This document shows positions 313 through 17,660 of a stretch of DNA of 28,563 bases, piece after piece. A program made the translations under genes and the position numbers. Under the pieces are notes generated by a model. It did no database searches. It had not been told where the DNA came from and saw only the letters and a list, made by a program, of their open reading frames with translations. Source of the DNA: Candidatus Thorarchaeota archaeon (GTDB taxonomy: Archaea; Asgardarchaeota; Thorarchaeia; Thorarchaeales; Thorarchaeaceae); assembly GCA_003345555.1 (NCBI GenBank), contig PRDJ01000024.1, positions 1-28,563 on the forward strand, given 5' to 3'. The first letter of the stretch is position 1. Every line of letters begins with the position of its first letter.

Positions 313-1710
313 TTAGCCAACGGGCCATTTTGTCTCTATTCTCACACCTGCTCGAGACAGCAGTTCAGTTTGCCGCTCATTAGCCTCATCCATGATTTCG
401 GCTTCGTTCAATGTCAAGAGATGCTTTCTCTTCATTAGAAGACTGCCGTTGACCACAACGGTATCCACGCACTTGCCGCTGGCCGCATACACGAGATTGG
501 AGACGGGATTGCATGCGGGTGTCAAGCCGATGTCTCTCATGTCAACGAGGATTAGGTCAGCAAGCTTGCCCGATTCCAGTGACCCTATTTTGGTCTCGAG
601 GCCAAGGGCTACTGCTCCTCCAATTGTCGCCATTTCTAGGACCTCCTCTGCGCTGACAACAGTTGGATTATTCTGAACGGATTTGTGCATCAGGGCGGCC
701 AAGCGCATCTCTCTTATCATGTCGTAGGTGTTGTTGCTTGGTCCTCCATCGCAACCAAGTGAAACCGGGACACCAAGTCTCAGCATCTCGGGTATTCTAG
801 CAAAGCCTGACGCCAGCTTCATGTTGCTAGCTGGACAATGAGACACATTGGACTTGGTCTCGGCTAGGTTCTTCAAGTCTGCATCATCTAAGTGCACACC
901 ATGTGCAAACACGATGCTTGGCCCCAAGAGACCCATGTCCTTCGCGAAGCTAGTCAGGTTGGGGTAGTTCTTCTGCTTAGCATATCGGACATCATCTAAG
1001 ACCTCGCCCAGATGCATTGTCATTCTCATTCCGTGAGCCTTTGACCTCTGAACAACCTCCTTGAAGAGGTCTGTGCTCACCGCCCCCAAAGAGCGAAGCC
1101 CGTACCAGATCTGAATTCGGCCATCCGATTTGCCGCGCCACTTCGCAAACATTGAGTCTGCTTCCTTCAGTGACGCCTCCTTCTCCTCGACCATACCCGG
1201 ATACATGATATCGGGGTTGTCGGCATAACCCGTAGAGTCCATGACGATCTTTGATAGCGCAGCCCGCATGCCTGCCTCCTCTACGGCTTTCGCGATTCCA
1301 TCAAACCCATATCGGGTGTGAATCATGCATTCAACAAAGGAAGTTGTGCCGGTCCTGATCATCTCAGCCATACATAGCTTAGCGGAGGCCCTACCATCCT
1401 CCAGAGTGAAGTTACCCTGCAGCACCCATACACGATTCTTCAGCCAGTCTACGAGCGCCACGTCGTCAGCGCAACCCCTCAGTAGGGCTTGAGCAAGGTG
1501 GACGTGGGTATCTATCAGCCCTGGCATGACTAGCATGTTCTTTGCGTTTATTACTGTCTCTGCATGATGCCCTCGAATCCTGTCAGTCTTATCCACATTG
1601 ATAATCTTGTTGTCCTCTACCAGTACTGCACCATCGCGAATAATCCGTCTCTCTGGATTCATTGTGACAACATAACCATTCTTGATGAGAAGCGACGCTT
1701 GAGTCGGCAA
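313..1710 (-). CDS. Metal-dependent amidohydrolase/deaminase (MtaD/SsnA/guanine-deaminase-like); substrate uncertain
   Basis: Amidohydrolase motifs PGLIDTHVHL (HxH), HLGE, AHGVH, HCPASNMKL and LGCDG are present. The likely start is TTG at 1710 (MPTQASLLIKNG); the frame is open to 1734. Confidence 0.85.
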   Translation of the reverse strand: MPTQASLLIKNGYVVTMNPERRIIRDGAVLVEDNKIINVDKTDRIRGHHAETVINAKNMLVMPGLIDTHVHLAQALLRGCADDVALVDWLKNRVWVLQGNFTLEDGRASAKLCMAEMIRTGTTSFVECMIHTRYGFDGIAKAVEEAGMRAALSKIVMDSTGYADNPDIMYPGMVEEKEASLKEADSMFAKWRGKSDGRIQIWYGLRSLGAVSTDLFKEVVQRSKAHGMRMTMHLGEVLDDVRYAKQKNYPNLTSFAKDMGLLGPSIVFAHGVHLDDADLKNLAETKSNVSHCPASNMKLASGFARIPEMLRLGVPVSLGCDGGPSNNTYDMIREMRLAALMHKSVQNNPTVVSAEEVLEMATIGGAVALGLETKIGSLESGKLADLILVDMRDIGLTPACNPVSNLVYAASGKCVDTVVVNGSLLMKRKHLLTLNEAEIMDEANERQTELLSRAGVRIETKWPVG

Positions 1711-1779
1711 CTTCCAATCCCAGCTTACCCGCAAATCCGCGCGGGCATGAACATAATGATTGTGGTGAGCCGGGCTTTA

Positions 1780-3588
1780 CTACTGGGACATCACCAAGAA
1801 GCGGACGCGGACTTCGAGCCCCTGTTCAGGGCTGCCTGCTACTCTATCTTTGGCTTCGACCCAAGCACCATATTTGTCAGCAAGTCTGTGGACAAGGTGG
1901 AGACCAACACCACCATATCGACGCCTAGGGTCGAAGAACTGCCTCTTCTTCGAGTCAGAGAGACCCGGACCGTTGTCAGCGATTCGCAGCTCGAACGTAC
2001 TCCCGGAGAACTCTCCATTTATCCATAGGTGCTTGTCAGGAGACGAGTTGTGCTTAACGGCATTCTCCATCAGGTTCCATAGGAGGTGGTTAAGCGAGCT
2101 GTCAGCCAATATGTAAAGATGCTCAGGGAGAAGACCGACCTCCGGTTCTACCCGATATTGTCTCGATAGCAGATGTATCTCAGCATCAAGCACGTCCATA
2201 AGATCGACAGTCACAAGCGGTTCGGCCTTTGCTTCCTCTGCCCTTCTGACCTTGTTTATGAGCTCAATGCACCTATTGGCGCCCTCAGTTACATAGCGTC
2301 TGGCATTCTCGACCTCTGGCGTGACTGAACCGTTGTCTAGAAGGTCCGCACCAGCAAGAATGAGTTGCAGTTGATTGCCAACGTCATGGAGAAGAAGATC
2401 GAGCAGAAACCTTGCTTCCTCTTCTGCGCTCTTCAACTCGGAGACATCCGTGAAGATCGCAAAGCTGCCAAAGTACTTCCCAACCGGGTCAAACAGAGGC
2501 GACGCAGCGACCATCGCGGGAACAAGTGCTCCGGACTTGCGGATGAGGTCTACATCGTAGTGTTCCACTCTGCCCGCACGTCGGGCTTTCATCTTTTCTT
2601 CGACGTCCTCTTTGGACCATCCATAAATCATGTCAGTTATCGGTCGACCCACAAGGTCCTCGCTCGAATCGTAACCTAGCATCCTGCATAATGCTGCATT
2701 CACAAGCACGATGCTACTCTTATCGTCATCTACGGCCAGTCCTGAATCCATTGTCTCAACAAGAGTCCGGTATCTATGCTCGCTAGTCTGCAGTCTACTT
2801 TCCCGGTCTCTCTCTTCTGTGGCGTCAACCGCCTGTGCTACCGTCTTAGTCTGACCTCGGCGACTCGTAATTGTTCGACTGGTGAATTCAACAATGCGAA
2901 GCGTGCCATCTTTGTGAGGGACCTTTATGTCATATTCTGCAGGAACCTGCTCTCCAGCTTGCCTCCGTCGGTACCTTTCTGCAGTGAGCGCAATACTATC
3001 GGGATGCAGAAACTCACGAAAATCATGTCCAAGTATCTCACTTCTACTAGTTCCCGTGATATCACAGAGTGCGTCGTTAGCGTATTCGATTTGATACTTA
3101 TCATCGATTACACATATGCCCACACTGGCATGCTCAACAAAGGCGCGAAGTAGATCCATTTCCTCTCCAATCTTCTCTTCCTTTGCTGCTCTACGCGATA
3201 GGTCAAATATGTAGGCCAGGAATCCGGTGACTCTGCTGCCAGACTTCAATGGTTGAGCAAAAACCTCCGTGAGAACCTGAACGCCATCTCTACGCAACAG
3301 CCTGAGGGACATGGAAGTAGGTTTTGCACCGGCGGCTAGTTGCTTCAGACCCTCATGGACCATTCGGACCTGCTCTGGAACGACAAGCTGATCTGCGTGA
3401 ACACCTGCTTCGATATCAGAAAGTTTCAGCCCGAGCAAGTCAAGAGCAGAACTATTGACATGCACAATATTCAGATTGGCATCGAGCTCGATGACTGCTA
3501 AGGGCATCTCTTCTGCAAGCTGCCTGAACTGAAAGGGGGCTAGACTTGTAGGTTTCGTCGGACTCGAGCCTTTCATGGAGGAATCCAC
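1780..3588 (-). CDS. Soluble sensor histidine kinase with three PAS domains
   Basis: Three PAS/PAC-like repeats are followed by an H-box (LLHDVGNQL), N-box (LMENAVKHN), G1 (IADNGPGL) and G2 (GGVGLHLV). No transmembrane segment is evident. An alternative ATG start lies at 3576. Confidence 0.9.
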   Translation of the reverse strand: MDSSMKGSSPTKPTSLAPFQFRQLAEEMPLAVIELDANLNIVHVNSSALDLLGLKLSDIEAGVHADQLVVPEQVRMVHEGLKQLAAGAKPTSMSLRLLRRDGVQVLTEVFAQPLKSGSRVTGFLAYIFDLSRRAAKEEKIGEEMDLLRAFVEHASVGICVIDDKYQIEYANDALCDITGTSRSEILGHDFREFLHPDSIALTAERYRRRQAGEQVPAEYDIKVPHKDGTLRIVEFTSRTITSRRGQTKTVAQAVDATEERDRESRLQTSEHRYRTLVETMDSGLAVDDDKSSIVLVNAALCRMLGYDSSEDLVGRPITDMIYGWSKEDVEEKMKARRAGRVEHYDVDLIRKSGALVPAMVAASPLFDPVGKYFGSFAIFTDVSELKSAEEEARFLLDLLLHDVGNQLQLILAGADLLDNGSVTPEVENARRYVTEGANRCIELINKVRRAEEAKAEPLVTVDLMDVLDAEIHLLSRQYRVEPEVGLLPEHLYILADSSLNHLLWNLMENAVKHNSSPDKHLWINGEFSGSTFELRIADNGPGLSDSKKRQFFDPRRRYGGVGLHLVHRLADKYGAWVEAKDRVAGSPEQGLEVRVRFLVMSQ

Positions 3589-3747
3589 TCTAGAACTACT
3601 TCAGATGCGTGTCAGCTCACGACGCGCAAACCAGCGGACAGTCAACATAAACAGCACTTTAGTACTTTCTCGTGATGAAGGGCAGGCATACAATAACAAT
3701 ATCTTAAATGGACAGATGACCTGTGCTCAGAGGCTGCGCTGCGACTC

Positions 3748-4251
3748 TTGGAGCGTTCTGAAGGCTTGAGCAACATCCTTGTCATCGATTTGGGACTATG
3801 TACCGGGTGCCGGAATTGCGAACTTGCTTGCAGCCAAAAACACACGTCAACCTTCAATCCCCGTAGGTCAAGAATCCAGGTGCTCAAAGACGAATCGAGG
3901 AATGTCATCCTTCCTCTCGTATGCCTGCACTGCGAAGTTCCTCTCTGTGCGGGAGCATGCCCGACCAGTGCCATCATCAAGGATGATGCTGGAACATTGG
4001 TTGTTGATACAAAGAAGTGTGTGGGCTGTTCTGATTGTGTGACTGCGTGCGTCTATGGTGGAGTCGTACTAGATCCTATGACTCAGAGAGCCATAAAATG
4101 CGACCTATGTAGTGGTGACCCAGCGTGTGTAAAGGCATGCCAATACGGGGCAATCACAATGCTGCCCAGAGAATTACGTGGACTTCGAGGAAGGTACGAG
4201 GGGACGAAGAGAGTATTGCAGTCCTATCTCCTCATTGAGGAGGGGACCTGA
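3748..4251 (+). CDS. 4Fe-4S dicluster (DmsB/HycB-like) electron-transfer subunit of AOR-1
   Basis: Cys motifs CTGCRNCELAC, CLHCEVPLCAGACP, CVGCSDCVTAC and CDLCSGDPACVKAC. The gene ends 2 nt before AOR-1. Confidence 0.9.
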   Translation: MERSEGLSNILVIDLGLCTGCRNCELACSQKHTSTFNPRRSRIQVLKDESRNVILPLVCLHCEVPLCAGACPTSAIIKDDAGTLVVDTKKCVGCSDCVTACVYGGVVLDPMTQRAIKCDLCSGDPACVKACQYGAITMLPRELRGLRGRYEGTKRVLQSYLLIEEGT

Positions 4252-4253
4252 GG

Positions 4254-6197
4254 ATGCCGTTCCCGTACAAGGGGTATGCAGGTTACTACCTTGAAGTCGA
4301 CCTGACAAAGGGGAATCTCTACAAGCGAGAAATGGAGAAAGAGTGGGCAAGGCGGTATCTTGGTGGAACTGGTATAGCCGCTCAAATCCTATGGGAGCGG
4401 ACAGGTCCTCAAACCGAACCGCTCTCACCTGAGAATGTCCTTGTCGCAGCAACGGGGCCCCTTACCGGTGTCATGTTCTCGCCCTCAGGCAGGATGATGT
4501 TTGCTTCAAGGGGACCCCTCACGGGCATATGGGCCGAGAGTCATGTGGGCGGGTTCTTTGGTCCCGAAATGAAGTATGCCGGGTTTGATGTTGTCATCAT
4601 ACATGGAAGATCCTCAAAGCCGGTCTACCTTTACTTGTGCGACGGAAAGGCGGAGCTGCGTAATGCATCAGATCTCTGGGGCCGAGAGACAGATACTACA
4701 ATTCAGATGATTCGCGAAGAGCACAAGGATCCCTCGATAGAGACGGCCGTCATAGGACCAGCTGGCGAGAATCAAGTGCTCTTCGGATGCATCAGTGTCG
4801 ATGCGCACCGCTCTGCGGGCCGAACTGGACTTGGAGCAGTAATGGGTTTCAAGAATCTCAAAGGAATTGTTGCGAGCGGCTCATTTGGCCTTGAAGCCTA
4901 TAATACGGAGGCCTACCTGAAAGCGAATGAGCAGGAGACGGCAAAGCTCAAGGACCCATTGTGGAAAGAATCCATTGCATCATTGAAGGATTACGGCACC
5001 ACCGGTCTCGTCACCATGATCAACGAAATCGGCAGGCTTCCCACCAAGAATCACTGGACAGGTTTCTATGAAGAAGCAGAGCAAATCGGCCCTGAAGCAA
5101 TCTCGCGCGGGTATAGGATTGCGGAGGAAGCATGCTACGGGTGTTCGATAGGGTGCAAGTATGTCTATAGAATCAAGGAGGGAAGATTCGCAATCGGACC
5201 TGTCGGGGGTCCAGAGTATGAGACCATCATGGCCTTCGGCTCCAACTGTCTCAATAGCAACCTCCAATCCATACTGTATCTGGGAACGAGATGCGATCGC
5301 CTTGGCATGGACACAATATCATGTGGAAAGACTATTGGTTTCGCCATGGAGTTGTGGGAGAAGGGAATACTCACATCCAAGGACACCGGAGGGCTCGACC
5401 TCACGTGGGGAAACGTGGACTCGATGGTCAAGCTTGTAGAAATGATTTCGAAGAAGGAAGGGATTGGGGCTATCCTGAGCCAGGGAACAAGACTGGCCGC
5501 AGAAAAGATTGGAGGTGATGCGGCAACCTATGCTATCCATTCAAAGGGCTTGGAGGCTTCAGGACAGGATCCGCGGGCGCACCAATCGGTTGGACTCACA
5601 TATGCCACCAACGTCAGAGGAGCAGATCATCTCAGGAGTCTCTCAAGCTTGGAGGAACTCGGCTATCCTGATGTTATCATCAAGAGATTCGGAAAGGACA
5701 AGTTTAAGGAGATAATGAAGATTACATCACCAATTCACAAGGGTGAGGTGATCAAGGACATAGAGGACCTGTATGCCCTCGTCGACTCAGCAGTAATATG
5801 CAAGTACGGAACAATGTGGCCCCCGGTTTATTACTTTGACACTTTTGTGAATGTCATCCCGCCTCTCACAGGCATGGCAGAGTGGGGCGACCCAAGAATC
5901 GTTCGTGAAGCTGCAGAGAGGATCTGTCATCTTAGGAGAGCATACAATCACCGACTTGGTATAACAAGGAAACAAGAAACGCTGCCAAAGAGGCTTCTTT
6001 CAGACCCCATGCCCACAGGACCAGCAAAGGGCGGATTTCCGCAACTGGATTACATGCTTGATGAATACTATAAGTTCCGAGGCTGTGACACTAAGACGGG
6101 TCTCCCCAAGAAGGAGACTCTGATTCGATTAGACATGGGTCCGGTCGCCAAGGAACTTGAGGCTAGGAAAATGCTTGCACCCGCACAATCCGCCTAG
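4254..6197 (+). CDS. aor: Tungsten aldehyde:ferredoxin oxidoreductase family protein (AOR-1)
   Basis: Family motifs YAGYYLEVDL, GPAGEN, GRTGLGAVMGxKNLK, ACYGCSIGC, GPEYET, GMDTIS, RGADH and DSAVIC. Confidence 0.92.
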   Translation: MPFPYKGYAGYYLEVDLTKGNLYKREMEKEWARRYLGGTGIAAQILWERTGPQTEPLSPENVLVAATGPLTGVMFSPSGRMMFASRGPLTGIWAESHVGGFFGPEMKYAGFDVVIIHGRSSKPVYLYLCDGKAELRNASDLWGRETDTTIQMIREEHKDPSIETAVIGPAGENQVLFGCISVDAHRSAGRTGLGAVMGFKNLKGIVASGSFGLEAYNTEAYLKANEQETAKLKDPLWKESIASLKDYGTTGLVTMINEIGRLPTKNHWTGFYEEAEQIGPEAISRGYRIAEEACYGCSIGCKYVYRIKEGRFAIGPVGGPEYETIMAFGSNCLNSNLQSILYLGTRCDRLGMDTISCGKTIGFAMELWEKGILTSKDTGGLDLTWGNVDSMVKLVEMISKKEGIGAILSQGTRLAAEKIGGDAATYAIHSKGLEASGQDPRAHQSVGLTYATNVRGADHLRSLSSLEELGYPDVIIKRFGKDKFKEIMKITSPIHKGEVIKDIEDLYALVDSAVICKYGTMWPPVYYFDTFVNVIPPLTGMAEWGDPRIVREAAERICHLRRAYNHRLGITRKQETLPKRLLSDPMPTGPAKGGFPQLDYMLDEYYKFRGCDTKTGLPKKETLIRLDMGPVAKELEARKMLAPAQSA

Positions 6198-6240
6198 GGT
6201 GCAATATGGCAGAACTCTTATGTCAGATGCATCTTGAGAA

Positions 6241-7341
6241 TTGACCATGGCAGACCTCGCCGTAACAATAGCCGGGATTCAGTTCAAGAATCCGGTCCTG
6301 ACAGCAGCTGGCCCCACAACACGTGATGGAGAATCTCTCTTGAAGGCCGCTTCAGGAGGAGCGGGCGGTCTCGTAACCAAGACTGTAAGCGTCAAACCTG
6401 CGGCCGTGGCTAAACCGAACATGGCAGTCTTGCAGCCCGGCAAAGTTGGATCCAGGCGTGGAATGTTGAACGCTGAACTGTGGAGCGAACTCCCGCTTGA
6501 TAGGTGGATTAAGTATGAATACCCATTGGCACTTGGTTCGGGTTTGCCTGTGATAGCAAGCATTGGATACACACCTCAGGAAGTCTCGCAGATTGGGCCC
6601 ATGGTCGAGGAGGCGGGGGTCAGTGCCATTGAATTCAGCACTCACTATGTCGGGGGCCACAAGGAGATTGCCAAGACTCTGAGAGACTGTGTCTCAATCC
6701 CCATATTCGCTAAGCTTAGTCCACAGGTCGATGTGGCAAAGGTCGCCAAAGAACTCGAGCAAAGTGTCGACGGAATCGTAGCGATTAACACGCTGGGGCC
6801 TTGTCTACATATCGACATTGAGACAGGTAGACCTGTGCTTGGGGGCGAGAAGGGCTATGGTTGGCTGAGCGGGGCCGCAATCAAGCCTCTTGCGCTCAGA
6901 TGCGTTGCAGACATTGCACAGACTGTCAAGATACCAGTCATTGCAGTTGGCGGAGTGATGAGCGGCGAGGACGCAGTGGAGTTCTTTATGGCTGGCGCCT
7001 CGGCGGTCCAAGTCTGCACGGCAGCAATACTTGACGGACCGAGCGTATATGGGAAGATATCAACGGAGATTGGCGATTGGCTAGACAAGCACGGTCACAA
7101 GTCTATCGAGTCAATTCGTGGTCTTGCACTCAGCAGTATTGGCAAGACGACTGCGTTCACCTACCCGCCCACAGTAGATACTGCAAGATGTAATTTCTGT
7201 GGCCTATGCTCTAAGTCGTGTGTCTACTCTGCCATATCCGTAAACAAAGAAAAGGAATTCTTTCAGATTGACCGGAAGAAATGTGCTGCATGTGGACTGT
7301 GTGTAGCGATTTGTCCTCAGTCTGCTCTCAGCGCTAGCTAA
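6241..7341 (+). CDS. PreA-like protein (dihydropyrimidine dehydrogenase subunit / dihydroorotate dehydrogenase class 1 FMN barrel plus C-terminal 2x[4Fe-4S] domain) with a non-canonical active site
   Basis: Motifs KNPVLTAAGP, VTKT, GMLNAELWSE, AINTL, GWLSGAAIKP and VGGV...AVQVCTA. C-terminal CNFCGLCSKSC and CAACGLCVAICP. EFSTHY replaces the ELNxSCP motif. An alternative ATG start lies at 6247. Confidence 0.8.
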   Translation: MTMADLAVTIAGIQFKNPVLTAAGPTTRDGESLLKAASGGAGGLVTKTVSVKPAAVAKPNMAVLQPGKVGSRRGMLNAELWSELPLDRWIKYEYPLALGSGLPVIASIGYTPQEVSQIGPMVEEAGVSAIEFSTHYVGGHKEIAKTLRDCVSIPIFAKLSPQVDVAKVAKELEQSVDGIVAINTLGPCLHIDIETGRPVLGGEKGYGWLSGAAIKPLALRCVADIAQTVKIPVIAVGGVMSGEDAVEFFMAGASAVQVCTAAILDGPSVYGKISTEIGDWLDKHGHKSIESIRGLALSSIGKTTAFTYPPTVDTARCNFCGLCSKSCVYSAISVNKEKEFFQIDRKKCAACGLCVAICPQSALSAS

Positions 7342-7357
7342 CAGAAGCTGTTGGGCC

Positions 7358-8542: not shown

Positions 8543-8730
8543 TGGATGTCCTCAGAAAGAGACCTCAGACAGGAGCGAATGAAAAAGCCTTCCATTGATG
8601 AGTACGTGTAGAAGGAACCCCGATTCTGATTCTCCTCTTCTTGAGTGAAACTCACCGGGACAACGTCGAAGGGGGAAGTTGTTATATCAGGCTTCCGGGG
8701 GAGGTGAGAACAACTAACGGTGATCCAAGC

Positions 8731-10155
8731 TTGAGGATACTGTTTGTAGAGCCGCCCAAAGTCTTCTGGTTCGTGATGGGTGAGTACCTTCCCCCTCCGC
8801 TAGGGATTCTGAACCTCGCAGCGTATTTGCGGCGTCATGATTCCAATCTCGACATAGAGGTTCTTGATTGTCAGGCAGAGGGAATTGACTGGAGAGCCTT
8901 AGAGGGACGGATTGAGGCCTTTGGACCAGACGTGGTAGCACCTAGCTCCCTTACTACATGTAACGCATACAGGGGACTCAGAATCGCTGAACTCGCAAAG
9001 AAGATCAATCCCGACACAACTACGATTGTAGGGGGACAGCACTATACTGCCTTGGCCGAAGAAACACTTGAAATCTATCCAGAGATTGACGTGGTCGTAA
9101 GAGGAGAGGGGGAGCAAACCTTGGCAGAAGTGATAGACGCTCTGAAAGGAAACCACAATCTATCGCAGGTCAAAGGAATCTCTTTCAGGAAGAACAGGAC
9201 AATCACGACGACACCGGATCGTCCGCTCATTGAGAACTTGGATGACCTGCCTCTTCCGGGATACGATTTTGTTGAGAAGCAAATGAAGAAGTACCATTTC
9301 TCATTGATGGCAGGCGCAAATACCCCCTACGCGCTCATTGAGGCCTCGAGGGGCTGCCCTCATGATTGCTCTTTCTGCTCGCAATGCGCGTTTTGGCAAT
9401 GGCAATGGAGGCTCAAGTCTCCCAAACGGATTGCTGATGAGTTCGAGTACTGCTATACCAAGTTTGGCACACGGTTCTTTTGGTTGACCGACGATAACTT
9501 CGGCCTTGGCCCAAGAACGCGAGAACTATGTGGCGAGATTCAGAAGAGAGGAATTGCGGATGATATCATGTGGTTCATGCAGGCACGATGTGATGATATT
9601 GTCAATCAGCAGGACACTCTGCCATTACTGCGGAAGTCCGGATTGATGTGGATATTGGCAGGCGTCGAGAGTCATAGCCCGGAGATACTGAAGTCATTCA
9701 ACAAAGGAATCGAGCCCTCCATGTCAAAGGAGGCATTTCGTCTCCTGAAACTCAGCGACATCTTCGCGCAAGCCACACTAATCATAGGGTCACGCAGCGA
9801 TTCTCACGAAACAATTCGAGGACTTCGAGCCTATGTCAATGATCTTGACCCTGATCTCGCAATATTCATGGCTCTTACGCCATTTCCAGGAACTGCATTC
9901 TACGATGAAGCCAAGAGGAATGGCTGGATAGAAGATACGAACTGGGCGCACTACGACATGGCACATGCAATCATGCCAACTGAACATCTTACGCGTGCGG
10001 AAGTACAAGAGGAGCTCTATCACTGTTTCCGTGGTTTCTATGGGTCATGGAACAGAAGAATGACCGGACTGTTTTCACGTAACAAACTCAAGAGGAGAAC
10101 ATACAGATACATGGCACGGCAAGGAGTCCTCCAGGCATTACGAGGTATGTTCTAG
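8731..10155 (+). CDS. Cobalamin-binding (class B, BchE-like) radical SAM protein
   Basis: N-terminal B12-binding domain (PPLGILNLAAYL, IVGGQH, VVRGEGE) and CxxxCxxC motif (GCPHDCSFC). The likely start is TTG at 8731, after GGTGA at 8719-8723; the ORF track start at 8641 is probably too long. Confidence 0.88.
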   Translation: MRILFVEPPKVFWFVMGEYLPPPLGILNLAAYLRRHDSNLDIEVLDCQAEGIDWRALEGRIEAFGPDVVAPSSLTTCNAYRGLRIAELAKKINPDTTTIVGGQHYTALAEETLEIYPEIDVVVRGEGEQTLAEVIDALKGNHNLSQVKGISFRKNRTITTTPDRPLIENLDDLPLPGYDFVEKQMKKYHFSLMAGANTPYALIEASRGCPHDCSFCSQCAFWQWQWRLKSPKRIADEFEYCYTKFGTRFFWLTDDNFGLGPRTRELCGEIQKRGIADDIMWFMQARCDDIVNQQDTLPLLRKSGLMWILAGVESHSPEILKSFNKGIEPSMSKEAFRLLKLSDIFAQATLIIGSRSDSHETIRGLRAYVNDLDPDLAIFMALTPFPGTAFYDEAKRNGWIEDTNWAHYDMAHAIMPTEHLTRAEVQEELYHCFRGFYGSWNRRMTGLFSRNKLKRRTYRYMARQGVLQALRGMF

Positions 10156-10895
10156 TGGCGCGCAAGCGTGAACCCGGCGGAATGCATGCATATTGGTACT
10201 TGGCAGTGTCTTTGTCGAGCCTCGGTATCATTCCGCTCATAACATTCTCAGGCAATGCAAGTCAGGCCATGTCCATTGAGCAATCGCGACTAGTCTGGTC
10301 TGTATTCACACTGATTTGTGTGGCTGGCACGATTGCAGGCGTAAGACCTTCGAGTTGTTCCAGAAGCTCGGAGACCGCTCAGACCCATGATGGGGCAGAA
10401 CGACCGGGTTTGACAAGTGATGGGATTAGAGTAGTACGCAGAAAAGGGCATCACTACTCATGCGACCGTTACTCAGGACACGTCATCTCCGCCCGTGATA
10501 GAGTCTTTTGTGCGGGATGCACGGGACTTGCCATAGGGGGGACAATCGCTGCATCTGGGAGCCTGCTGCACATGACCGCAGGCCTCTCATTGGGATCAGG
10601 CATGTTGCTGTTCTGGCTCGGCTTCACAGGCGTAGCAGTCGGACTACTCCAGCATCCACTCTACAGGGTCCTCGGCGTACAGAACGGGTTCGTCCGCGTT
10701 GGTGTCAACGTGCTATTCGTTAACGGAGCGTTCCTTCTTCTTACGGGCGCTGATCAACTGGTCCAGAGTCTCTCCCTTGACACCTACATTCTCATCGTTA
10801 TTCTCTTTTGGATTTCAACCAGAGTCGTAATGTCAAGAAGGGAGCATCTCAGAATCTGTGCGGAATGCCCTGAGTTGTCTTGCACTGGACGGTAG
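10155..10895 (+). CDS. Multi-pass membrane protein with a His/Cys cluster (distantly DUF2085-like)
   Basis: Several hydrophobic helices plus GHHYSC...GH...FCAGCTG and a C-terminal CAEC. The GTG start overlaps the radical SAM gene's TAG by 1 nt. Confidence 0.65.
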   Translation: MARKREPGGMHAYWYLAVSLSSLGIIPLITFSGNASQAMSIEQSRLVWSVFTLICVAGTIAGVRPSSCSRSSETAQTHDGAERPGLTSDGIRVVRRKGHHYSCDRYSGHVISARDRVFCAGCTGLAIGGTIAASGSLLHMTAGLSLGSGMLLFWLGFTGVAVGLLQHPLYRVLGVQNGFVRVGVNVLFVNGAFLLLTGADQLVQSLSLDTYILIVILFWISTRVVMSRREHLRICAECPELSCTGR

Positions 10896-11082
10896 TCAGC
10901 AAGAAGAAGGAATTCATCATGGTGCTCAAACCAAGCATCCTTGCACACCGTTCCGCGCTAGCCAGAGAGGACATCTGAGCTTCGGTCTAGGTCACGCCTT
11001 GTCAGGGCGGCCAGTGTAGATAGCGAAAGAAAGGGCCGTCCGCATCAGGACTGGCCCTAATCCCGTGAAGTAGTGGACCAAG

Positions 11083-11415
11083 TTATGTCACTCGCTTTCT
11101 ACGAGTGAGACCGTAGATTGCGCCAGCCAAAATGAGCAAACCGATGGCTATGACGAGGAACGGTCCTGCCGTACTGGTCCAGAACAGAGAAAGGTCGTAG
11201 CCCAAGTACCAAGACACACCGTAGATCACGATGAGCGCTCCGAAAACGAGGCCCGCAATCGCGCCTCCATTTGGAAGACCGAAACACTCGTCAGCGTCCT
11301 TGTCGCGTTTTCTGAACGCCGCTCTTGATCTGTCGGGATACAGTTCGGCACCGCATCGCGTGCAGGTCTGAGCGTCATCTGGATTCTGTTGACCACAGCT
11401 ATGACAGTACACCAT
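11083..11415 (-). CDS. Zinc-ribbon membrane protein
   Basis: N-terminal CHSC-x11-CTRC followed by two hydrophobic helices. Confidence 0.8.
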   Translation of the reverse strand: MVYCHSCGQQNPDDAQTCTRCGAELYPDRSRAAFRKRDKDADECFGLPNGGAIAGLVFGALIVIYGVSWYLGYDLSLFWTSTAGPFLVIAIGLLILAGAIYGLTRRKRVT

Positions 11416-11546
11416 ATATCACACAACCATCTGCATGGAGCATAAGACCACCTATAAAACGATAACGCTGGGCGGAAACAAAGCAACTCCGGCTGACATA
11501 ACACAAGGGACAAGAGTATGATCCGGGCGGACTAGGTTCCTTCCGC

Positions 11547-12461
11547 TCATAAGTGCAAGTAGGACTCCATTCTCGATTCGACCTGTTTTCGAGTGGGCAT
11601 ATTGTAGGGTCCCACAGTCTCTAGATTGTAGGAAGCACAGGTTGCTCCAAACAGTCCAGCTCTCCGGATGTCGCCCGTACGCATATACTCAAGAAGAAAA
11701 CCGATAGTGTACGTGTCTCCACACCCCGTCGAGTCCACAAACTTGTCAGCCAAAACGAGCGGGATATCGATGCGTGAGTCACGAGTGAATATGATTGACC
11801 CTCTTCGGTCGCGAGTCACTATTACCATGCGAGGCCCAGATATGGTGATCTGTTCAACGGCGGATGCCTTGGGCACGTCGCCGTAAGCTGTCTTCAGTTC
11901 TTGGCTGTCAAACTTCAATAGGTCAACATATCCTAGTATGTCATCTCTCTCTTCCCATTCCCGAGGGACGACCTGATCGCCTTCTATTGCTCTGAGGTAG
12001 CCTTGAACGTCAAGTGAAACCAAAGCCCCGCTTGCATGTGCCTGCTCAAGACAGGAGAGGTCCAGCTCGCCAGCCGTAAGAGGACAGAAATGGAATACTC
12101 TGGAACGAAGATGCTGCTTTGAGTAGTAATCGGCAGTCAAGCGAGGTGCAACAGCCTCTACACGCTGCGTCCGGTTGCCGGCTGAGTCATAGATGTTCAC
12201 GAACCGTGTGGAGTGAGGGCCTCTTGTCTTCAAACCTGTTAGGTCAAGGCCAGACTTCTTGAGAATATCAATGTACTCCTGCTCGAAATCATGGCCGACG
12301 CAGCTGACTATACCCGCACCCTTCGCACCTACTGCGGGAGCCAACATGGCATAGGCAGTTCCCCCTCCAAGACTTTCCCGAGTTATTTCTGGTGAAACCA
12401 GTAAGTCTCTACTCAGGTGACCCACGACGACGATCTCTGGGCTGGGCCGCGTCGGTGACAT
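11547..12461 (-). CDS. PfkB/ribokinase family carbohydrate or nucleoside kinase
   Basis: Motifs VVVGHLSRD, GGGTAYA, VSLDVQG, VTRDRRGS and DSTGCGDTY. Confidence 0.88.
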   Translation of the reverse strand: MSPTRPSPEIVVVGHLSRDLLVSPEITRESLGGGTAYAMLAPAVGAKGAGIVSCVGHDFEQEYIDILKKSGLDLTGLKTRGPHSTRFVNIYDSAGNRTQRVEAVAPRLTADYYSKQHLRSRVFHFCPLTAGELDLSCLEQAHASGALVSLDVQGYLRAIEGDQVVPREWEERDDILGYVDLLKFDSQELKTAYGDVPKASAVEQITISGPRMVIVTRDRRGSIIFTRDSRIDIPLVLADKFVDSTGCGDTYTIGFLLEYMRTGDIRRAGLFGATCASYNLETVGPYNMPTRKQVESRMESYLHL

Positions 12462-12647
12462 TGAGTTCCAGCAGACAGGGGATTGCTGTCACCTATAACT
12501 TCACTGATAATGGAGGGGACCAACGAACATACAAGTCAACAACGTAACTACCCATTTGGGACGTTGAATTCGAATCATTCTCAGCGGGTTGGTCAGTCAA
12601 CAACCATTAAAATGCCTTAGTCCAACTGTAAAAACGGGTCAATTCCG

Positions 12648-12929
12648 TTGGCAACAGTGACTGTGAAGTTCTTTGCGACTGTGCGCGAAATCACAGGCAC
12701 AAAGAGCGTCGAGATTGATGCACACAATGTTGAACAGCTGCTACAGGAACTGATTCGTACGTTTGGAAAGCGGTTCTCGGACGCAGTCATGGACCCTAAG
12801 TCCGGAGGGCTCAAACGATTCTATTCATGCATGGTGAATGGCAAGCGAATCGAGCTCCTCAATGGCTACCAGACAGCGCTAAATCAAGGTGATACTGTGG
12901 CACTGTTCCCACCCGTTGGAGGAGGATAG
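12648..12929 (+). CDS. MoaD/ThiS family ubiquitin-like sulfur carrier (SAMP-like)
   Basis: VKFFATVREITG...MVNG...GDTVALFPPVGGG, ending in a C-terminal diglycine. TTG start. Confidence 0.92.
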   Translation: MATVTVKFFATVREITGTKSVEIDAHNVEQLLQELIRTFGKRFSDAVMDPKSGGLKRFYSCMVNGKRIELLNGYQTALNQGDTVALFPPVGGG

Positions 12930-12931
12930 AC

Positions 12932-14341
12932 TTGGCTCGCTCCGGCTCCACAAAAAGCGCAAGCATAGGCAAGACCGGGTCGGTCCAGCTTGTGATAAAG
13001 AATGCCAAGATGCTGATGGAGTCCGGCATCCTCAGAGGAGGAGTCGCCGTGTCCAATGGACGTATTTGTTGTGTGGCCACAGACGAACATCTGCCGCCTG
13101 CTGAGACAGTGGTCGATGCTCGTGGACAAATCCTTATGCCAGGACTCATTGATGGTCACGCCCACATTCATGATCCGGCCAAGGCGGACCACGAGGATTT
13201 CACAACAGGTTCACGTGCAGCTGCGGCTGGAGGGGTGACCACGGTCATAGATATGCCTTTGACAAGTTCGGTGGTCACGCAGAAACAGATTGAGGAAAAG
13301 GCCAGTCAAGGTGCGGCGATGTCCATCGTTGACTTCTCGATGTACGCGGGCATGATGAAGTCAGACAATGTCGCCGCGATACCGCTCTTGATTGAGAACG
13401 GCGTCGCTGCTTTCAAGGCCTTCACCTGCGAACCATACTATGCGAACGACGGGGTCTTAACGCGATTACTAAGCGAGGTTTCAGAGCACGGCGGCCACCT
13501 TACCGTTCACTGTGAGAATCAGGGTGTGCTCGACGAGTTCAAGAATGATATGGAGGGAGAATGGGATGCTCCCATCAGTCATTCGCTGGCCCGACCCAAT
13601 CTAGCAGAGCAAATCGCCGTGCGGCAGACCATTGGCATAGCCCAACAGACAGGGGGGCATCTTCACATAGCTCACGTCTCAACGCGTGAGGCGATTCATG
13701 AAGTTGATTATGGAAAGCGCGCGGGGATTTTACTCACTTCGGAGGTGTGTCCACATCATTTAGTCTTCAACAGAGACGACATGAACAGGCTCGGGCCAAA
13801 GAGCAAGATGAACCCACCCTTGCGATCCAAGGAGGACAGGGCTGCTCTATGGTCAGCCCTCCTCATGGGGACCATTGACATTGTTGTGAGTGACCATGCC
13901 CCTTGCCCGATCGAAGAAAAGAACAGAGGAGCAAACGACATCAGAGACGCATGGGCAGGAGTAGACGGTATCCAGATGATACTCAGGGTTCTCCTCTCAG
14001 AAGGAGTCAACAAGGGGAGACTGTCTTTTGGACGCCTCGTTGAAGTTGCATGTAGAAACCCCGCAAGAATCTTCGGACTCTATCCCAAGAAAGGGGTACT
14101 GCAGGTTGGCTCGGACGCGGACATGGTGATATTGGACCCCACGCGAGAGGAAACGATTAAGTCGGATATGATGTTCTCGAAGTGTGGTTGGACCTTATAC
14201 GAAGGAATGAAGATGAAGGGAGCCCCTATTGCGACATTCGTCAGGGGAGCTCAGGTCTTCAATGAGGACAGAACCACTATGAAACCTGGTCATGGCACGT
14301 TTCTTAGGATGGGTGAAGGCAGTGCGCCATTTGAGGAATAG
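12932..14341 (+). CDS. Cyclic amidohydrolase (allantoinase / dihydropyrimidinase / dihydroorotase superfamily)
   Basis: Motifs PGLIDGHAH, AAAAGGVTTVIDMP, AFKAF (carbamylated Lys), VHCEN, HIAHVS, KMNPPLR and SDHAP. The moaD Gly codons GGAGGAGGA also serve as the SD sequence for its TTG start. Confidence 0.88.
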   Translation: MARSGSTKSASIGKTGSVQLVIKNAKMLMESGILRGGVAVSNGRICCVATDEHLPPAETVVDARGQILMPGLIDGHAHIHDPAKADHEDFTTGSRAAAAGGVTTVIDMPLTSSVVTQKQIEEKASQGAAMSIVDFSMYAGMMKSDNVAAIPLLIENGVAAFKAFTCEPYYANDGVLTRLLSEVSEHGGHLTVHCENQGVLDEFKNDMEGEWDAPISHSLARPNLAEQIAVRQTIGIAQQTGGHLHIAHVSTREAIHEVDYGKRAGILLTSEVCPHHLVFNRDDMNRLGPKSKMNPPLRSKEDRAALWSALLMGTIDIVVSDHAPCPIEEKNRGANDIRDAWAGVDGIQMILRVLLSEGVNKGRLSFGRLVEVACRNPARIFGLYPKKGVLQVGSDADMVILDPTREETIKSDMMFSKCGWTLYEGMKMKGAPIATFVRGAQVFNEDRTTMKPGHGTFLRMGEGSAPFEE

Positions 14342-14344
14342 GAC

Positions 14345-14836
14345 ATGCCGGATCTCAAGTTTGCCTTTGGCGACCCAATGGTATGCACCGGTTGTATGAT
14401 TTGCGCCAACGTGTGCAGCATGTTCTACTTCAAAGTGCTAGGTCCGACTAGGTCGAGAGTCAGGGTCTTGCGTTTCGAAGATGGGCTGGATTTTCCCCTA
14501 TTCTGTCGCAACTGTAAGGATGCTCCCTGTAAGGATGCTTGTCCGGAAGATGCAATCATGCGCACCTCTAAGGGAATCGTGACTGTAAACAACTCAAAGT
14601 GCACTGGCTGTGGAGCGTGCGTCAAGGCTTGTCCATATGATGCTATCTTCATCAACCCCGACTCGAACAAGGCCATCAAGTGTATTGCATGTGGCGAATG
14701 CGTGAAGCGGTGCCCGGTTGGAGCCATAACGATAACGACAGAAAATGATCTCAAGGAGAGAGACAAGGTAGGTAAAATCTCCGGGTTCTACGAGAAACAC
14801 AAGAGAGATCTGTACTCTAAGGGGGAGTTCCTCTGA
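14345..14836 (+). CDS. 4Fe-4S dicluster electron-transfer subunit of AOR-2
   Basis: Cys motifs CTGCMICANVC, CRNCKDAPCKDACP, CTGCGACVKACP and CIACGECVKRCP. Confidence 0.9.
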   Translation: MPDLKFAFGDPMVCTGCMICANVCSMFYFKVLGPTRSRVRVLRFEDGLDFPLFCRNCKDAPCKDACPEDAIMRTSKGIVTVNNSKCTGCGACVKACPYDAIFINPDSNKAIKCIACGECVKRCPVGAITITTENDLKERDKVGKISGFYEKHKRDLYSKGEFL

Positions 14837-16719
14837 TCAAGGGCGTGGGTGGCCGCTTTCTCCGGGTCGACCTGATGAGTGGGAGAATCGAAAAGAAGCC
14901 CCTGGACGAACAGCTCGTTCACAAGTATCTGCTCGGGGCCGGATTTCTCTCGAAGATGCTTTTCGACATGATTCCGGACAATACCGATCCATTTTCACCC
15001 GCGAATGTTCTCGGTTTCGCCACGGGATTGCTCACAGGTTCCATGTTTCCTCAATCCTCAAGGCACGTTATAGCTGCTCTGTCTCCCTTGACAGGAATAT
15101 GGGGTGAGAGTCACGCCGCAGGCTTCTGGGGTGCTGAACTGAAGTTTGCTGGCTATGACGCCATAATCTTCACGGGTGCATCTGAGAGACCCGTATACCT
15201 CCTTGTTGAAGACTCAAACGTGCAGTTGCTTGAGGCGTCTAGTATATGGGGCAAGGATGTCTTCGAGACCGATGGTGCACTGAGAGCCAAACATGGAAGG
15301 CAATCCAGAGTTCTCTCCATTGGCCAAGCAGGCGAGAACTTGGTCCGCTTTGCGGCCATAATGAACGACAGGGACAGGGCATCTGCACGTTCGGGTCTTG
15401 GTGCAGTTATGGGATCGAAGAAGCTGAAGGCCATTTGCGTACGTGGTGGCGGCAAGCTGGAGGTTGCGGACCCAGCCAACTACCTTAGAACAATGGATGA
15501 GCTATACAAGAGAATGCTTGCCAATCCCTTCACGAGGGGGCGGGCGGAGTTCGGCACGACAAGTCTAATCGAACTGATGCAGCATATCGGTCGTCTGCCG
15601 ACTTACAACATGCGGCAAGGCGTATTCGATGGATACGAGAAGATTGGCGGTCACGCTATCAACCGAGGATATCTCATTAAACCTAGAGCAGATTGGAGTT
15701 GCCTTCAGAGATGTGGTCGTTTCACATCAGTACCAGATGGTCCGTATGCGTACACAGGTGGTTCACCCGAGTTTGAGAGTCAGGCGGCCTTGGGATCGCG
15801 ATGTGGCAACGACAACATAGAATCAGTTCTCTATAGCCATCATCTGGCAAACAAGTATGGGATGGATACTATATCGCTCGGAGGCACCATAGCGTGGGCG
15901 ATGGAGGCTTGGGAAAAGGGAATCCTCACAGCCAAAGATACTGGAGGAATAGACCTCAGCTGGGGGAATCATGAGTCGATCGTTAAACTGACCGAGATGA
16001 TTGCTTTCAGGAAAGGATTCGGGGACCTGCTTGCCGAGGGAAGCTTCAGGGCTGCCAAGACGATTGGGCGTGGGAGTGAGAAGTTTGTCATGGCCGTGAA
16101 GAAGCAGGAAATTGCGGGGCAGGAACCCAGAGCCCAAAAATCAATGGGGCTTGCTGCCGTTACAGCCGCAAGGGGAGCCGATCATCTCTATGGATTCCCA
16201 GTGCTCGATGAAGTCGGCTTCGACGATGAGATAAAGAAGCGCTTCGGCTCCAAGTACCTGCCACAGATGGCGGACAGACTGAATCCGACTTACAAGGGCA
16301 TAATGGTTAAGGAATGCGAGGATTACATGGTTGTCGTGGAGAGTGTGGGCCTCTGCAAGTACGGCACACAGATTCCCCCAGAGTTCTACTACGAGGACGT
16401 CGCCTTGGGTCTGAAGATCCACAACGGACTTGATTTCACAGTCGAGGAACTGAAGAGAATCGGGGAACGAATTGTCAATCTGAATCGCTTGTTCAATGCC
16501 AGGTTCGGAATCACAAGAGATGATGATGCTCTTCCTGAGAGGCTAGTGGAAGAGGAAGCACCGGTTGGCCCTTCGAAAGGGCAGGTCGTTGAACTGGAAT
16601 CGATGCTCAGTGAGTACTACTCCCACAGGGGATGGGACTCGAAGAGTGGCCTACCGACAAGAACCACCTTGAGGAAACTCTCCCTTGAACAGGAAGGGCA
16701 GAGTCTCACGCGGCACTAG
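14833..16719 (+). CDS. aor: Tungsten aldehyde:ferredoxin oxidoreductase family protein (AOR-2)
   Basis: Motifs GQAGEN, ARSGLGAVMGSKKLKA, SPEFES, GMDTIS, RGADH and ESVGLC. The start is either GTG at 14845 or, more likely, CTG at 14833 overlapping the upstream TGA. Confidence 0.9.
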   Translation: MIKGVGGRFLRVDLMSGRIEKKPLDEQLVHKYLLGAGFLSKMLFDMIPDNTDPFSPANVLGFATGLLTGSMFPQSSRHVIAALSPLTGIWGESHAAGFWGAELKFAGYDAIIFTGASERPVYLLVEDSNVQLLEASSIWGKDVFETDGALRAKHGRQSRVLSIGQAGENLVRFAAIMNDRDRASARSGLGAVMGSKKLKAICVRGGGKLEVADPANYLRTMDELYKRMLANPFTRGRAEFGTTSLIELMQHIGRLPTYNMRQGVFDGYEKIGGHAINRGYLIKPRADWSCLQRCGRFTSVPDGPYAYTGGSPEFESQAALGSRCGNDNIESVLYSHHLANKYGMDTISLGGTIAWAMEAWEKGILTAKDTGGIDLSWGNHESIVKLTEMIAFRKGFGDLLAEGSFRAAKTIGRGSEKFVMAVKKQEIAGQEPRAQKSMGLAAVTAARGADHLYGFPVLDEVGFDDEIKKRFGSKYLPQMADRLNPTYKGIMVKECEDYMVVVESVGLCKYGTQIPPEFYYEDVALGLKIHNGLDFTVEELKRIGERIVNLNRLFNARFGITRDDDALPERLVEEEAPVGPSKGQVVELESMLSEYYSHRGWDSKSGLPTRTTLRKLSLEQEGQSLTRH

Positions 16720-17654: not shown

Positions 17655-17660
17655 CAACAC

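What the first reader, a model, noticed from the sequence alone, without database searches (positions are those of the whole stretch)
313..16719. Two W-AOR operons embedded with nucleobase/heterocycle catabolic enzymes: candidate undescribed anaerobic ring-degradation pathway
Seen: the operon FeS-AOR1-PreA-like (3748-7341), the operon MoaD-cyclic amidohydrolase-FeS-AOR2 (12648-16719), and nearby a deaminase-type amidohydrolase and a PfkB kinase. Established: PreA-type reductases and dihydropyrimidinase/allantoinase act in pyrimidine and purine ring catabolism, normally with PreT or Mo-hydroxylases. No PreT or xanthine dehydrogenase gene is in this window. Inference: the AORs may either feed low-potential electrons to the PreA-like protein through its ferredoxin domain or oxidise ring-derived aldehydes/heterocycles, giving a tungsten-based route.
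Basis: partly seen in the sequence, partly recalled or inferred. Interest (0 to 1): 0.65.

Follow-up and report, generated by a model that had tools for sequence, protein, structure and literature searches.

The report
Tungsten-type purine breakdown cluster, Asgard archaeon
This Asgard archaeon appears to break down purines without oxygen by the route recently found in gut bacteria, but an unstudied group of tungsten-type enzymes stands where the bacteria use molybdenum xanthine dehydrogenases, which would be new chemistry for that enzyme family if confirmed.

Summary
The genes are real at the stated coordinates; the host is Thorarchaeota. The 'PreA-like' gene is neither PreA nor PyrD: it lacks the catalytic Cys loop (EFSTHY) and groups (98/99) with UacX-type reductases of bacterial uric-acid clusters (38-42% identity). 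That points to the reductive 2,8-dioxopurine pathway, not pyrimidine catabolism. Both AORs, plus a third on another contig, form a supported clade (99/98) in which the aldehyde-binding Tyr427 is always Gln, apart from ordinary AORs. This clade recurs beside UacX, SsnA-like and cyclic amidohydrolase genes in rearranged clusters from four Asgard families, Hadarchaeia, an Endomicrobia bacterium and metagenomes (context-blind: 7/10 loci versus 0/31 for other WORs). In 251 Asgard genomes it never co-occurs with xanthine dehydrogenase (74 versus 51 genomes). Best reading (0.6): these WORs replace XdhA/XdhD and hydroxylate or dehydroxylate purines. Main rival (0.17): they only supply electrons. No activity is shown. 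Tungsten is inferred from the family; YgeX, YgeY, a purine permease and a tungstate transporter were not found. Several genes in 313-16719 are passengers. I found no paper describing this; the scan noted the same system on another genome (e1-2992997).

The parts
313..1734 (-). Aminopurine deaminase, guanine-deaminase-like (guanine to xanthine, inferred)
   Evidence: Amidohydro_1. Keeps the GuaD-type pattern HxHxxQ, Arg at the GuaD PRF position, HxxE, His, Asp. Only 27% identical to E. coli GuaD and below its cut-off (200 vs 375 bits). Orthologs (51-54%) sit in rearranged clusters of two other Asgard families.
1780..3588 (-). PAS-domain sensor kinase-like protein; possible regulator, divergent from operon 1
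   Evidence: 3 PAS + HATPase_c. Syntenic in Thorarchaeia only; not seen in other lineages' clusters.
3748..4251 (+). WorS1, polyferredoxin small subunit (4x[4Fe-4S])
   Evidence: Fer4 families; cysteines invariant in 21 orthologs; 2 nt before WOR1.
4254..6197 (+). WOR1, AOR/WOR-family large subunit of the Gln427 clade
   Evidence: AFOR_N+C. Thr243, Glu311, Tyr312, Glu313, His448 and four Fe-S Cys kept; P. furiosus AOR Tyr427 replaced by Gln438. Clade 99/98.
6247..7341 (+). UacX-type FMN + 2x[4Fe-4S] reductase (2,8-dioxopurine ring reduction, inferred); ORF can start at TTG 6241
   Evidence: EFSTHY at 6631-6648 replaces ELNxSCPH. 42% to the C. somerae and 38% to the C. butyricum gene in uric-acid clusters, 29% to PreA, 33% to own PyrD. 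Tree 98/99 with UacX-type proteins. DPD/DHODH fold.
7358..8542 (-). M24 metallopeptidase; probably a syntenic passenger
   Evidence: Peptidase_M24; adjacent in Thorarchaeia, not part of the distant clusters.
8641..11415 (.). B12 radical-SAM protein, membrane protein and zinc-ribbon protein; lineage-specific insertion, not part of the system
   Evidence: Present here and in G003 only among about 20 Thorarchaeia loci.
11547..12461 (-). PfkB kinase, head-to-head with operon 2; role unresolved (ribose or nucleoside salvage possible)
   Evidence: PF00294; no family cut-off met; syntenic in Thorarchaeia; distant PfkBs (29-30%) flank one other cluster, L232.
12648..12929 (+). MoaD/ThiS (WorX) sulfur carrier ending in Gly-Gly
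   Evidence: PF02597; recurs in most clusters.
12932..14341 (+). Allantoinase-like cyclic amidohydrolase; inferred HyuA analogue opening the hydantoin ring of ureidomethyl-hydantoin
   Evidence: Just passes TIGR03178 allantoinase (363 vs 358 bits); best PDB hits are L-hydantoinase and allantoinases; motif HAHIHDP has no dihydroorotase Arg; not orthologous to HyuA/HydA; orthologs (43-47%) lie beside UacX in both WOR-type and XDH-type clusters.
14345..14836 (+). WorS2, polyferredoxin small subunit
   Evidence: Fer4 families; 8 nt before WOR2.
14845..16719 (+). WOR2, second Gln427-clade large subunit, with Asp in place of the first Fe-S Cys
   Evidence: AFOR_N+C; Tyr427 replaced by Gln, first Cys by Asp in most of the WOR2 subclade; subclade 100/100.

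Best explanation
The region is the core of an anaerobic purine-degradation pathway of the 2,8-dioxopurine type, in which a dedicated clade of AOR/WOR-family pterin enzymes does the job that molybdenum xanthine dehydrogenases do in bacteria. Proposed flow: adenine deaminase (C67) and the deaminase at 313-1734 give hypoxanthine and xanthine. Three WorLS pairs (WOR1, WOR2 here; WOR3 on C39) hydroxylate C2 and C8 to reach urate and dehydroxylate C6 to give 2,8-dioxopurine, passing electrons through their 4x[4Fe-4S] subunits or ferredoxin. The UacX-type FMN/Fe-S enzyme reduces the ring. An SsnA-like enzyme (C67) opens the six-membered ring. The allantoinase-like enzyme at 12932 opens the hydantoin ring. 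Two carbamoyltransferases (C35) with carbamate kinase (C52) strip the ureido groups and make ATP. Shown here: gene identities, residues, trees, neighbourhoods and the WOR/XDH exclusion. Shown in papers for bacterial homologs: XdhD or XdhAC, YgfK+SsnA, HyuA, YgeW or UacY. Inferred: every archaeal activity, purines as WOR substrates, one WOR per ring position, and tungsten as the metal. Which WOR does which step is a guess.
For: (1) The flavoprotein's best plasmid hits lie in clusters with dpaL, ygeY, D-aminoacylase, ssnA, guaD, xdh and hydA; shared STHY/SAHY loop; 98/99 clade apart from PreA and PyrD; the family profile also hits E. coli YgfK and eight motifs occur in order. (2) The genome has an SsnA-like gene with SsnA motifs, twin YgeW-like carbamoyltransferases, carbamate kinase and adenine deaminase, and no uricase or XDH. 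(3) Those scattered genes are physically joined to WOR1/WOR2 in Asgard family f12; SsnA + UacX + all three WORs are joined in f15; f18, an Endomicrobia contig and a one-strand operon FeS-WOR1-UacX-FeS-WOR3-hydrolase-WOR2 (L224) repeat the set in other orders. (4) WOR1/2/3 form a 99/98 clade, all 50 sampled members with Gln for Tyr427; that Tyr is conserved in aldehyde-oxidising AORs and proposed to position the aldehyde (PMC12096430). (5) Context-blind metagenome loci of 8 kb or more: 7/10 Gln-WOR loci carry a pathway gene, 0/31 other WOR loci do. (6) In 251 Asgard genomes, 74 have the clade, 51 have XDH, none has both; UacX-SsnA clusters of family f5 carry XDH instead. (7) The genome has other, Tyr427-type AORs for aldehydes.
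Against: No biochemical data, and no WOR is known to act on a purine (PMC13328260). The SsnA-like protein is below its cut-offs (351 vs 455.5; 373 vs 444 bits) and lies on another contig. No YgeX or YgeY ortholog, NCS2 permease, or WtpA/ModA/TupA-type binding protein was found in this genome. Six of 14 small Hadarchaeia MAGs with UacX-SsnA-hydrolase have neither XDH nor this clade; the two with WOR2 orthologs (G261, G262) and four more with other Gln-clade WORs also have XDH; Asgard G029 has XDH plus a sister-group Gln WOR. The exclusion rests on about four versus seven Asgard families, not 125 independent genomes. The results section I read in PMC12507026 reports activity for YgfK+SsnA, not for UacX, and I could not obtain C. 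difficile UacX itself.
Confidence: 0.6

Rival explanations
1. The pathway is purine degradation, but the WORs only oxidise aldehydes or another small donor and feed low-potential electrons to UacX; 2,8-dioxopurine comes from the environment or another enzyme.
For: WOR1-FeS1 is co-transcribed with UacX, which has no NAD(P)H module. Thr243, Glu313 and His448 are intact. Some Hadarchaeia keep UacX-SsnA without XDH or this clade.
Against: Does not explain three retained paralogs, the invariant Tyr427-to-Gln change, or the exclusion with XDH. Ordinary AORs already exist in the genome. Deaminases in the clusters imply entry from aminopurines, which needs ring hydroxylation.
Confidence: 0.17
2. The WORs act on an N-heterocycle, but the substrates or route differ from the bacterial pathway (modified or methylated purines, 8-oxopurines, pterins, or hydroxylation to 2,8-dioxopurine without urate).
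For: SsnA-like, GuaD-like and YgeW-like proteins are all below family cut-offs; the cyclic amidohydrolase is not a HyuA ortholog; YgeX and YgeY are missing.
Against: The UacX loop is nearly identical to that in complete bacterial uric-acid clusters, and the same hydrolase and twin carbamoyltransferases occur in an XDH cluster with carbamate kinase and a nucleoside phosphorylase (L091).
Confidence: 0.14
3. Reductive pyrimidine catabolism: a ferredoxin-type PreA plus dihydropyrimidinase, powered by the AORs.
For: DPD-like fold and domain order; the hydrolase scores 326 bits on the dihydropyrimidinase model.
Against: No catalytic Cys loop; below PreA and dihydropyrimidinase cut-offs; outside PreA and HydA clades; true preT-preA-hydA clusters exist separately in relatives.
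Confidence: 0.04
4. Chance neighbourhood of ordinary aldehyde-detoxifying AORs, kept by synteny in Thorarchaeia.
For: Gene order is conserved across the family together with unrelated genes; the genome has 10 AOR-family ORFs.
Against: The set recurs in different orders across Asgard families, Hadarchaeia and a bacterium; 0/31 control WOR loci show it.
Confidence: 0.03

Closest known systems
Reductive uric acid / 2,8-dioxopurine (yanthine) pathway of gut bacteria, C. difficile type with UacX (PMC12507026; bioRxiv 10.1101/2025.04.24.650524)
   Same: UacX-type FMN/Fe-S reductase without an FAD module, SsnA-like hydrolase, a hydantoin-opening cyclic amidohydrolase, carbamoyltransferase with carbamate kinase, a purine deaminase.
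   Different: No XdhA/XdhD in the genome; three AOR/WOR-family enzymes with polyferredoxins in their place; allantoinase-like rather than HyuA hydrolase; two carbamoyltransferases and no YgeY or UacY; no YgeX ortholog; archaeal. PMC12507026 has no mention of archaea or tungsten.
Class II WORs (WorL + WorS) of the AOR/WOR family, e.g. P. furiosus WOR5/ASOR and C. bescii GOR (PMC13328260)
   Same: AFOR_N+AFOR_C large subunit next to a 4x[4Fe-4S] small subunit and a ThiS-like WorX.
   Different: Separate clade with Gln at Tyr427; purine-gene neighbourhood, which that classification does not mention.
AOR sensu stricto (P. furiosus 1AOR, Aromatoleum 8C0Z, Acetomicrobium WOR1 9MQX, C. somerae WOR87, E. 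acidaminophilum AOR)
   Same: Closest solved structures by sequence; 35-39% identical to the plasmid-borne members; Thr243, Glu313, His448 kept.
   Different: Tyr427 is Gln, Tyr452 is Leu or Phe, WOR2 has a Cys-to-Asp Fe-S ligand; distinct clade.
PreA / dihydropyrimidine dehydrogenase and class 1 dihydroorotate dehydrogenase
   Same: FMN barrel with C-terminal 2x[4Fe-4S]; FMN-binding Lys and Asn motifs.
   Different: ELNxSCPH loop replaced by EFSTHY; 29-33% identity; the genome has its own PyrD-PyrK pair.

Membership tests
AOR/WOR family | AFOR_N and AFOR_C domains with pterin-binding and [4Fe-4S] motifs | tested here: met
   Pfam far above cut-off for both; motifs mapped.
AOR/WOR family | Tungsten in the cofactor | not testable with these tools
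   Inferred from family. No WtpA/ModA/TupA-type protein found in this genome; the PF12849 hit is PstS.
AOR sensu stricto (aldehyde oxidisers) | Second-shell Thr243, Glu313, Tyr427, His448 | tested here: not met
   Tyr427 is Gln in both enzymes and all 50 clade members; the mapping reproduces the published Thr-to-Ser change in E. acidaminophilum AOR.
AOR sensu stricto (aldehyde oxidisers) | Placement in the AOR clade | tested here: not met
   Separate 99/98 clade from C. somerae WOR87, E. acidaminophilum and Azospirillum AORs. P. furiosus AOR, FOR, WOR5 and BamB were not in the tree.
Class II WOR (WorLS) | Adjacent 4x[4Fe-4S] small subunit, no WorN/WorABC or Tat partner | tested here: met
   definition from PMC13328260. 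Number in the 92-clade scheme not determined.
PreA / DPD and class 1 DHODH | Catalytic Cys in the N-x-S-C-P loop | tested here: not met
   EFSTHY, invariant in orthologs.
PreA / DPD | PreT partner and family cut-off | tested here: not met
   No PreT adjacent; 188 vs 335 bits.
UacX | PF01180 + Fe-S, no FAD domain, clustered with SsnA and other uricolytic genes | tested here: met
   Domain content; clade and motifs shared with genes in complete bacterial clusters; orthologs beside SsnA-like genes. In this genome the SsnA-like gene is on another contig.
UacX | Direct similarity to C. difficile UacX (Q181U4) and 2,8-dioxopurine reductase activity | not testable with these tools
   Sequence not obtainable here; activity needs assay.
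2,8-dioxopurine pathway | XdhD/XdhAC molybdo-hydroxylase making 2,8-dioxopurine | tested here: not met
   PF02738 found in 0/60 family genomes including this one.
2,8-dioxopurine pathway | SsnA | tested here: inconclusive
   Best family is SsnA and motifs match, but below cut-off.
2,8-dioxopurine pathway | HyuA | tested here: not met
   Not orthologous to HyuA/HydA; proposed analogue.
2,8-dioxopurine pathway | YgeW or UacY, YgeY, YgeX, carbamate kinase | tested here: inconclusive
   Carbamate kinase 50% to YqeA; two carbamoyltransferases 31% to YgeW, below cut-off; no clear YgeY or YgeX.
Allantoinase AllB | TIGR03178 cut-off and an oxidative urate route supplying allantoin | tested here: inconclusive
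   363 vs 358 bits, but below the other AllB models; no uricase in the genome.
Guanine deaminase | Gln, Arg, Glu, His, Asp active-site set and family cut-off | tested here: inconclusive
   Residues align with E. coli GuaD (their roles are from my own knowledge); score below cut-off, 5'-deoxyadenosine deaminase model scores higher.

The most novel reading that the evidence does not exclude
A clade of three paralogous tungstopterin enzymes performs position-specific hydroxylation and dehydroxylation of purine rings (C2, C8, C6), the chemistry so far confined to the unrelated molybdenum xanthine oxidase family. Wired through polyferredoxins to UacX, they run a nearly redox-balanced, ATP-yielding purine fermentation in Asgard archaea, Hadarchaeia and some bacteria.
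Probability: 0.45. Interest if true: 0.88.

Novelty: new variant of a known kind. Interest (0 to 1): 0.72.

Why it matters
Only five of 92 WOR clades have a defined physiological role, nearly all with aldehydes (PMC13328260). This gives a specific, testable substrate set for a whole uncharacterised clade. If right, purine hydroxylation evolved twice on unrelated pterin-enzyme scaffolds. It extends the 2025 gut-bacterial urate pathway to archaea, and suggests that sediment Thorarchaeota gain ATP and nitrogen from nucleic-acid purines. It also corrects annotation: thousands of 'dihydroorotate dehydrogenase / 4Fe-4S binding' proteins may include this UacX-type family, and multiple AOR copies in Asgard genomes should not all be counted as aldehyde metabolism.

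Tried and rejected
PreA/PyrD identity for 6247-7341: rejected (loop, cut-offs, tree, separate PyrD-PyrK). Dihydroorotase identity for 12932-14341: rejected as the main role (no HxHxR Arg; most relatives have a separate 31-36% homolog), although this MAG shows no other candidate. SsnA identity for 313-1734: rejected (23% to SsnA; a better SsnA-like gene is on C67). Complex prediction of WorS1 with UacX gave no verdict (score 0.01) and is not used as evidence. The search for related loci with the diverse alignment A2 failed; the single-protein scan reached only Hadarchaeia. The AlphaFold model (pLDDT 74) confirmed the fold only; the active-site loops were too uncertain for docking arguments. The first tree run timed out and was redone with LG+G4. 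Tungstate-transporter searches were negative or ambiguous. Literature searches for a WOR-purine link found nothing relevant; the library lacks most subscription papers. M24 peptidase, PAS kinase and the B12 radical-SAM block were considered as members and set aside because they do not travel with the cluster outside Thorarchaeia.


Full report
Observation. The window is contig C24 of a 2.28 Mb, 93% complete genome whose proteins are closest to those named Thorarchaeota. Operon 1 is polyferredoxin 3748-4251, AOR-family 4254-6197 and a flavoprotein 6247-7341. Operon 2 is MoaD 12648-12929, a cyclic amidohydrolase 12932-14341, polyferredoxin 14345-14836 and AOR-family 14845-16719, with gaps of 2-8 nt. 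The genome has ten AOR-family ORFs, so two in one window needs context to mean anything.

The flavoprotein is not PreA. It has the DPD/DHODH fold but scores 188 bits against a PreA cut-off of 335. The loop that carries the catalytic Cys reads EFSTHY, invariant in orthologs. Without gaps, Ser, His and Tyr stand where DPD has Asn668, Ser670 and Cys671, so Tyr134 or His133 is the likely proton donor (inference). The genome has a separate canonical PyrD next to PyrK, and some relatives have separate preT-preA-hydA clusters. Distant homologs lie in purine clusters with xanthine dehydrogenase, carbamoyltransferases and carbamate kinase. The best plasmid hits are in Cetobacterium somerae (42%) and Clostridium butyricum (38%), inside clusters with dpaL, ygeY, D-aminoacylase, ssnA, guaD, xdh genes and a hydantoinase. 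That is the position of UacX, described in PMC12507026 as an FMN/Fe-S PydA homolog without an FAD domain that replaces YgfK in C. difficile. These proteins share the STHY/SAHY loop and other motifs, which also occur in order in E. coli YgfK. The window protein groups with them at 98/99, apart from PreA and PyrD. Caveats: I could not obtain C. difficile UacX itself, and the results section I read reports activity for YgfK with SsnA only.

The rest of the pathway. In bacteria, urate is dehydroxylated to 2,8-dioxopurine by XdhD or XdhAC, reduced by YgfK, opened by SsnA and HyuA, and stripped by YgeW or UacY, YgeY and YgeX (bioRxiv 10.1101/2025.04.24.650524 and 10.1101/2025.05.19.654654). This genome has an SsnA-like gene (C67; 351 bits, cut-off 455.5; SsnA motifs kept), two tandem carbamoyltransferases 31% identical to YgeW (C35), a carbamate kinase 50% identical to YqeA (C52) and an adenine deaminase above cut-off. 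It has no uricase and no xanthine dehydrogenase. No YgeX or YgeY ortholog and no NCS2 permease were found. The hydrolase at 12932 narrowly passes the allantoinase model, lacks the dihydroorotase Arg, and is not a HyuA ortholog. Its orthologs accompany UacX in both XDH-type and WOR-type clusters. Ureidomethyl-hydantoin differs from allantoin by one CH2, so an allantoinase-like site suits the HyuA step (inference). The deaminase at 313 keeps the GuaD-type residue set but is below cut-off.

The AORs. Against P. furiosus AOR, both keep Thr243, Glu311, Glu313 and His448, but Tyr427 is Gln. That Tyr is conserved in aldehyde-oxidising AORs and proposed to hold the aldehyde (PMC12096430). WOR2 also has Asp for the first Fe-S Cys. 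With a third paralog on C39 they form a clade of 99/98 support, split into WOR1, WOR2 and WOR3 subgroups, apart from C. somerae WOR87, E. acidaminophilum AOR and Azospirillum AOR. All 50 sampled members have Gln427. Gln also occurs in a sister group and in two unrelated rows. The genome's other AORs mostly have Tyr, with His or Val in two. Solved Pyrococcus enzymes and BamB were not in the tree, so the number in the 92-clade scheme (PMC13328260) is unknown. That paper does not mention purines or amidohydrolases.

Neighbourhoods. The order seen here recurs in about 20 Thorarchaeia genomes, usually without the radical-SAM block; that alone could be synteny. Rearranged versions are the real test. 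Asgard family f12 joins both carbamoyltransferases, the deaminase, SsnA-like, FeS-WOR1-UacX and WOR2-FeS. Family f15 joins SsnA-like, UacX and all three WORs. Family f18 joins UacX, SsnA-like, the deaminase and WOR3, with WOR2 adjacent. An Endomicrobia contig has an amidohydrolase, all three WORs and UacX. Metagenome contig L224 has FeS-WOR1-UacX-FeS-WOR3-hydrolase-WOR2 on one strand; L235, L232, L228 and Hadarchaeia L207-L209 are further variants. Among metagenome loci fetched by a WOR query alone and at least 8 kb long, 7 of 10 with a Gln427 WOR carry a pathway gene within 8 kb, against 0 of 31 with other WORs.

Exclusion with xanthine dehydrogenase. In 251 Asgard genomes, 74 have the clade (f1 57/60, f12 15/19, f15 1, f18 1) and 51 have PF02738 (f5 24/26, f22 15/16, f14 8/10, others); no genome is in both lists. 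Family f5 has SsnA-UacX-PLP enzyme-XDH clusters with no WOR. This is about four versus seven families, so it is suggestive, not a statistic. Exceptions exist: G029 has XDH and a sister-group Gln WOR in an SsnA-UacX operon. Of 14 small Hadarchaeia MAGs, six have neither and several have both.

Mechanism. The most economical reading is that the Gln427 WORs do what XdhA and XdhD do: water-derived hydroxylation at C2 and C8 and reductive dehydroxylation at C6. Three paralogs kept together across domains match three positions (inference). From hypoxanthine, the four electrons released on the way to urate equal the four consumed by dehydroxylation and ring reduction, so polyferredoxin wiring could balance the route; ATP would come from carbamoyl phosphate. 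I put this at 0.6, electron supply only at 0.17, another heterocycle or route at 0.14, pyrimidine reduction at 0.04 and chance at 0.03. Tungsten is inferred from family; no tungstate or molybdate binding protein was found in this genome. A complex prediction gave no verdict.

Novelty. It works like the C. difficile-type reductive urate pathway, but fails the XDH and HyuA membership tests, so it is a variant rather than a member. Searches of the paper library found no WOR-purine link. I reached this reading before consulting the scan's notes; an earlier report on another genome (e1-2992997) describes the same system, and one on this genome's twin carbamoyltransferases (e1-5421853) agrees. These are not independent evidence. 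Verdict: real feature, new variant of a known pathway with possibly new enzyme chemistry, interest 0.72.

Noticed in passing
window 17103-19882 (+): MvhD-MvhG-MvhA [NiFe]-hydrogenase genes directly follow WOR2 here and in many Thorarchaeia; could supply reductant, but may be synteny only. MvhA seems to lack its C-terminal end in this ORF.
   Followed up: no
window 8641-10155 (+): B12-binding radical-SAM protein (best model BchE, 269 bits, below cut-off) with a membrane protein; inserted only in this genome and G003.
   Followed up: partly
window 16750-16995 (-): Small Lrp/AsnC-like protein after WOR2, conserved at this place in several relatives.
   Followed up: no
G000 whole genome: No second dihydroorotase-like gene was found although PyrD-PyrK is present; most relatives have one at 31-36%. 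Probably MAG incompleteness.
   Followed up: partly
L198:5774-7144: The amidohydrolase in the Endomicrobia cluster has HHHFYQ and PCSPFS motifs, which I recall as the 8-oxoguanine deaminase signature (product: urate).
   Followed up: no
L089:6301-11077: A UacX-family gene lies just after F420 oxidoreductase, F420 ligase and luciferase-like genes, recalling the F420-dependent variant proposed in PMC12507026.
   Followed up: no
L271 and L284: Two WORs outside the clade also have Gln at position 427 and a D-aminoacylase-like gene about 10 kb away.
   Followed up: no
L051 (G003:C5:12000-31999): WOR1, WOR2 and the deaminase are each split in two ORFs in this genome; probably sequencing frameshifts.
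   Followed up: no
L300:71-1108 (G000:C53): TnpB-family RNA-guided endonuclease gene next to the phosphate ABC transporter.
   Followed up: no
L207-L209, L228, L232: A more divergent UacX-like group with a different loop (no STHY) is also paired with Gln427 WORs and SsnA-like genes; may act on another heterocycle.
   Followed up: partly
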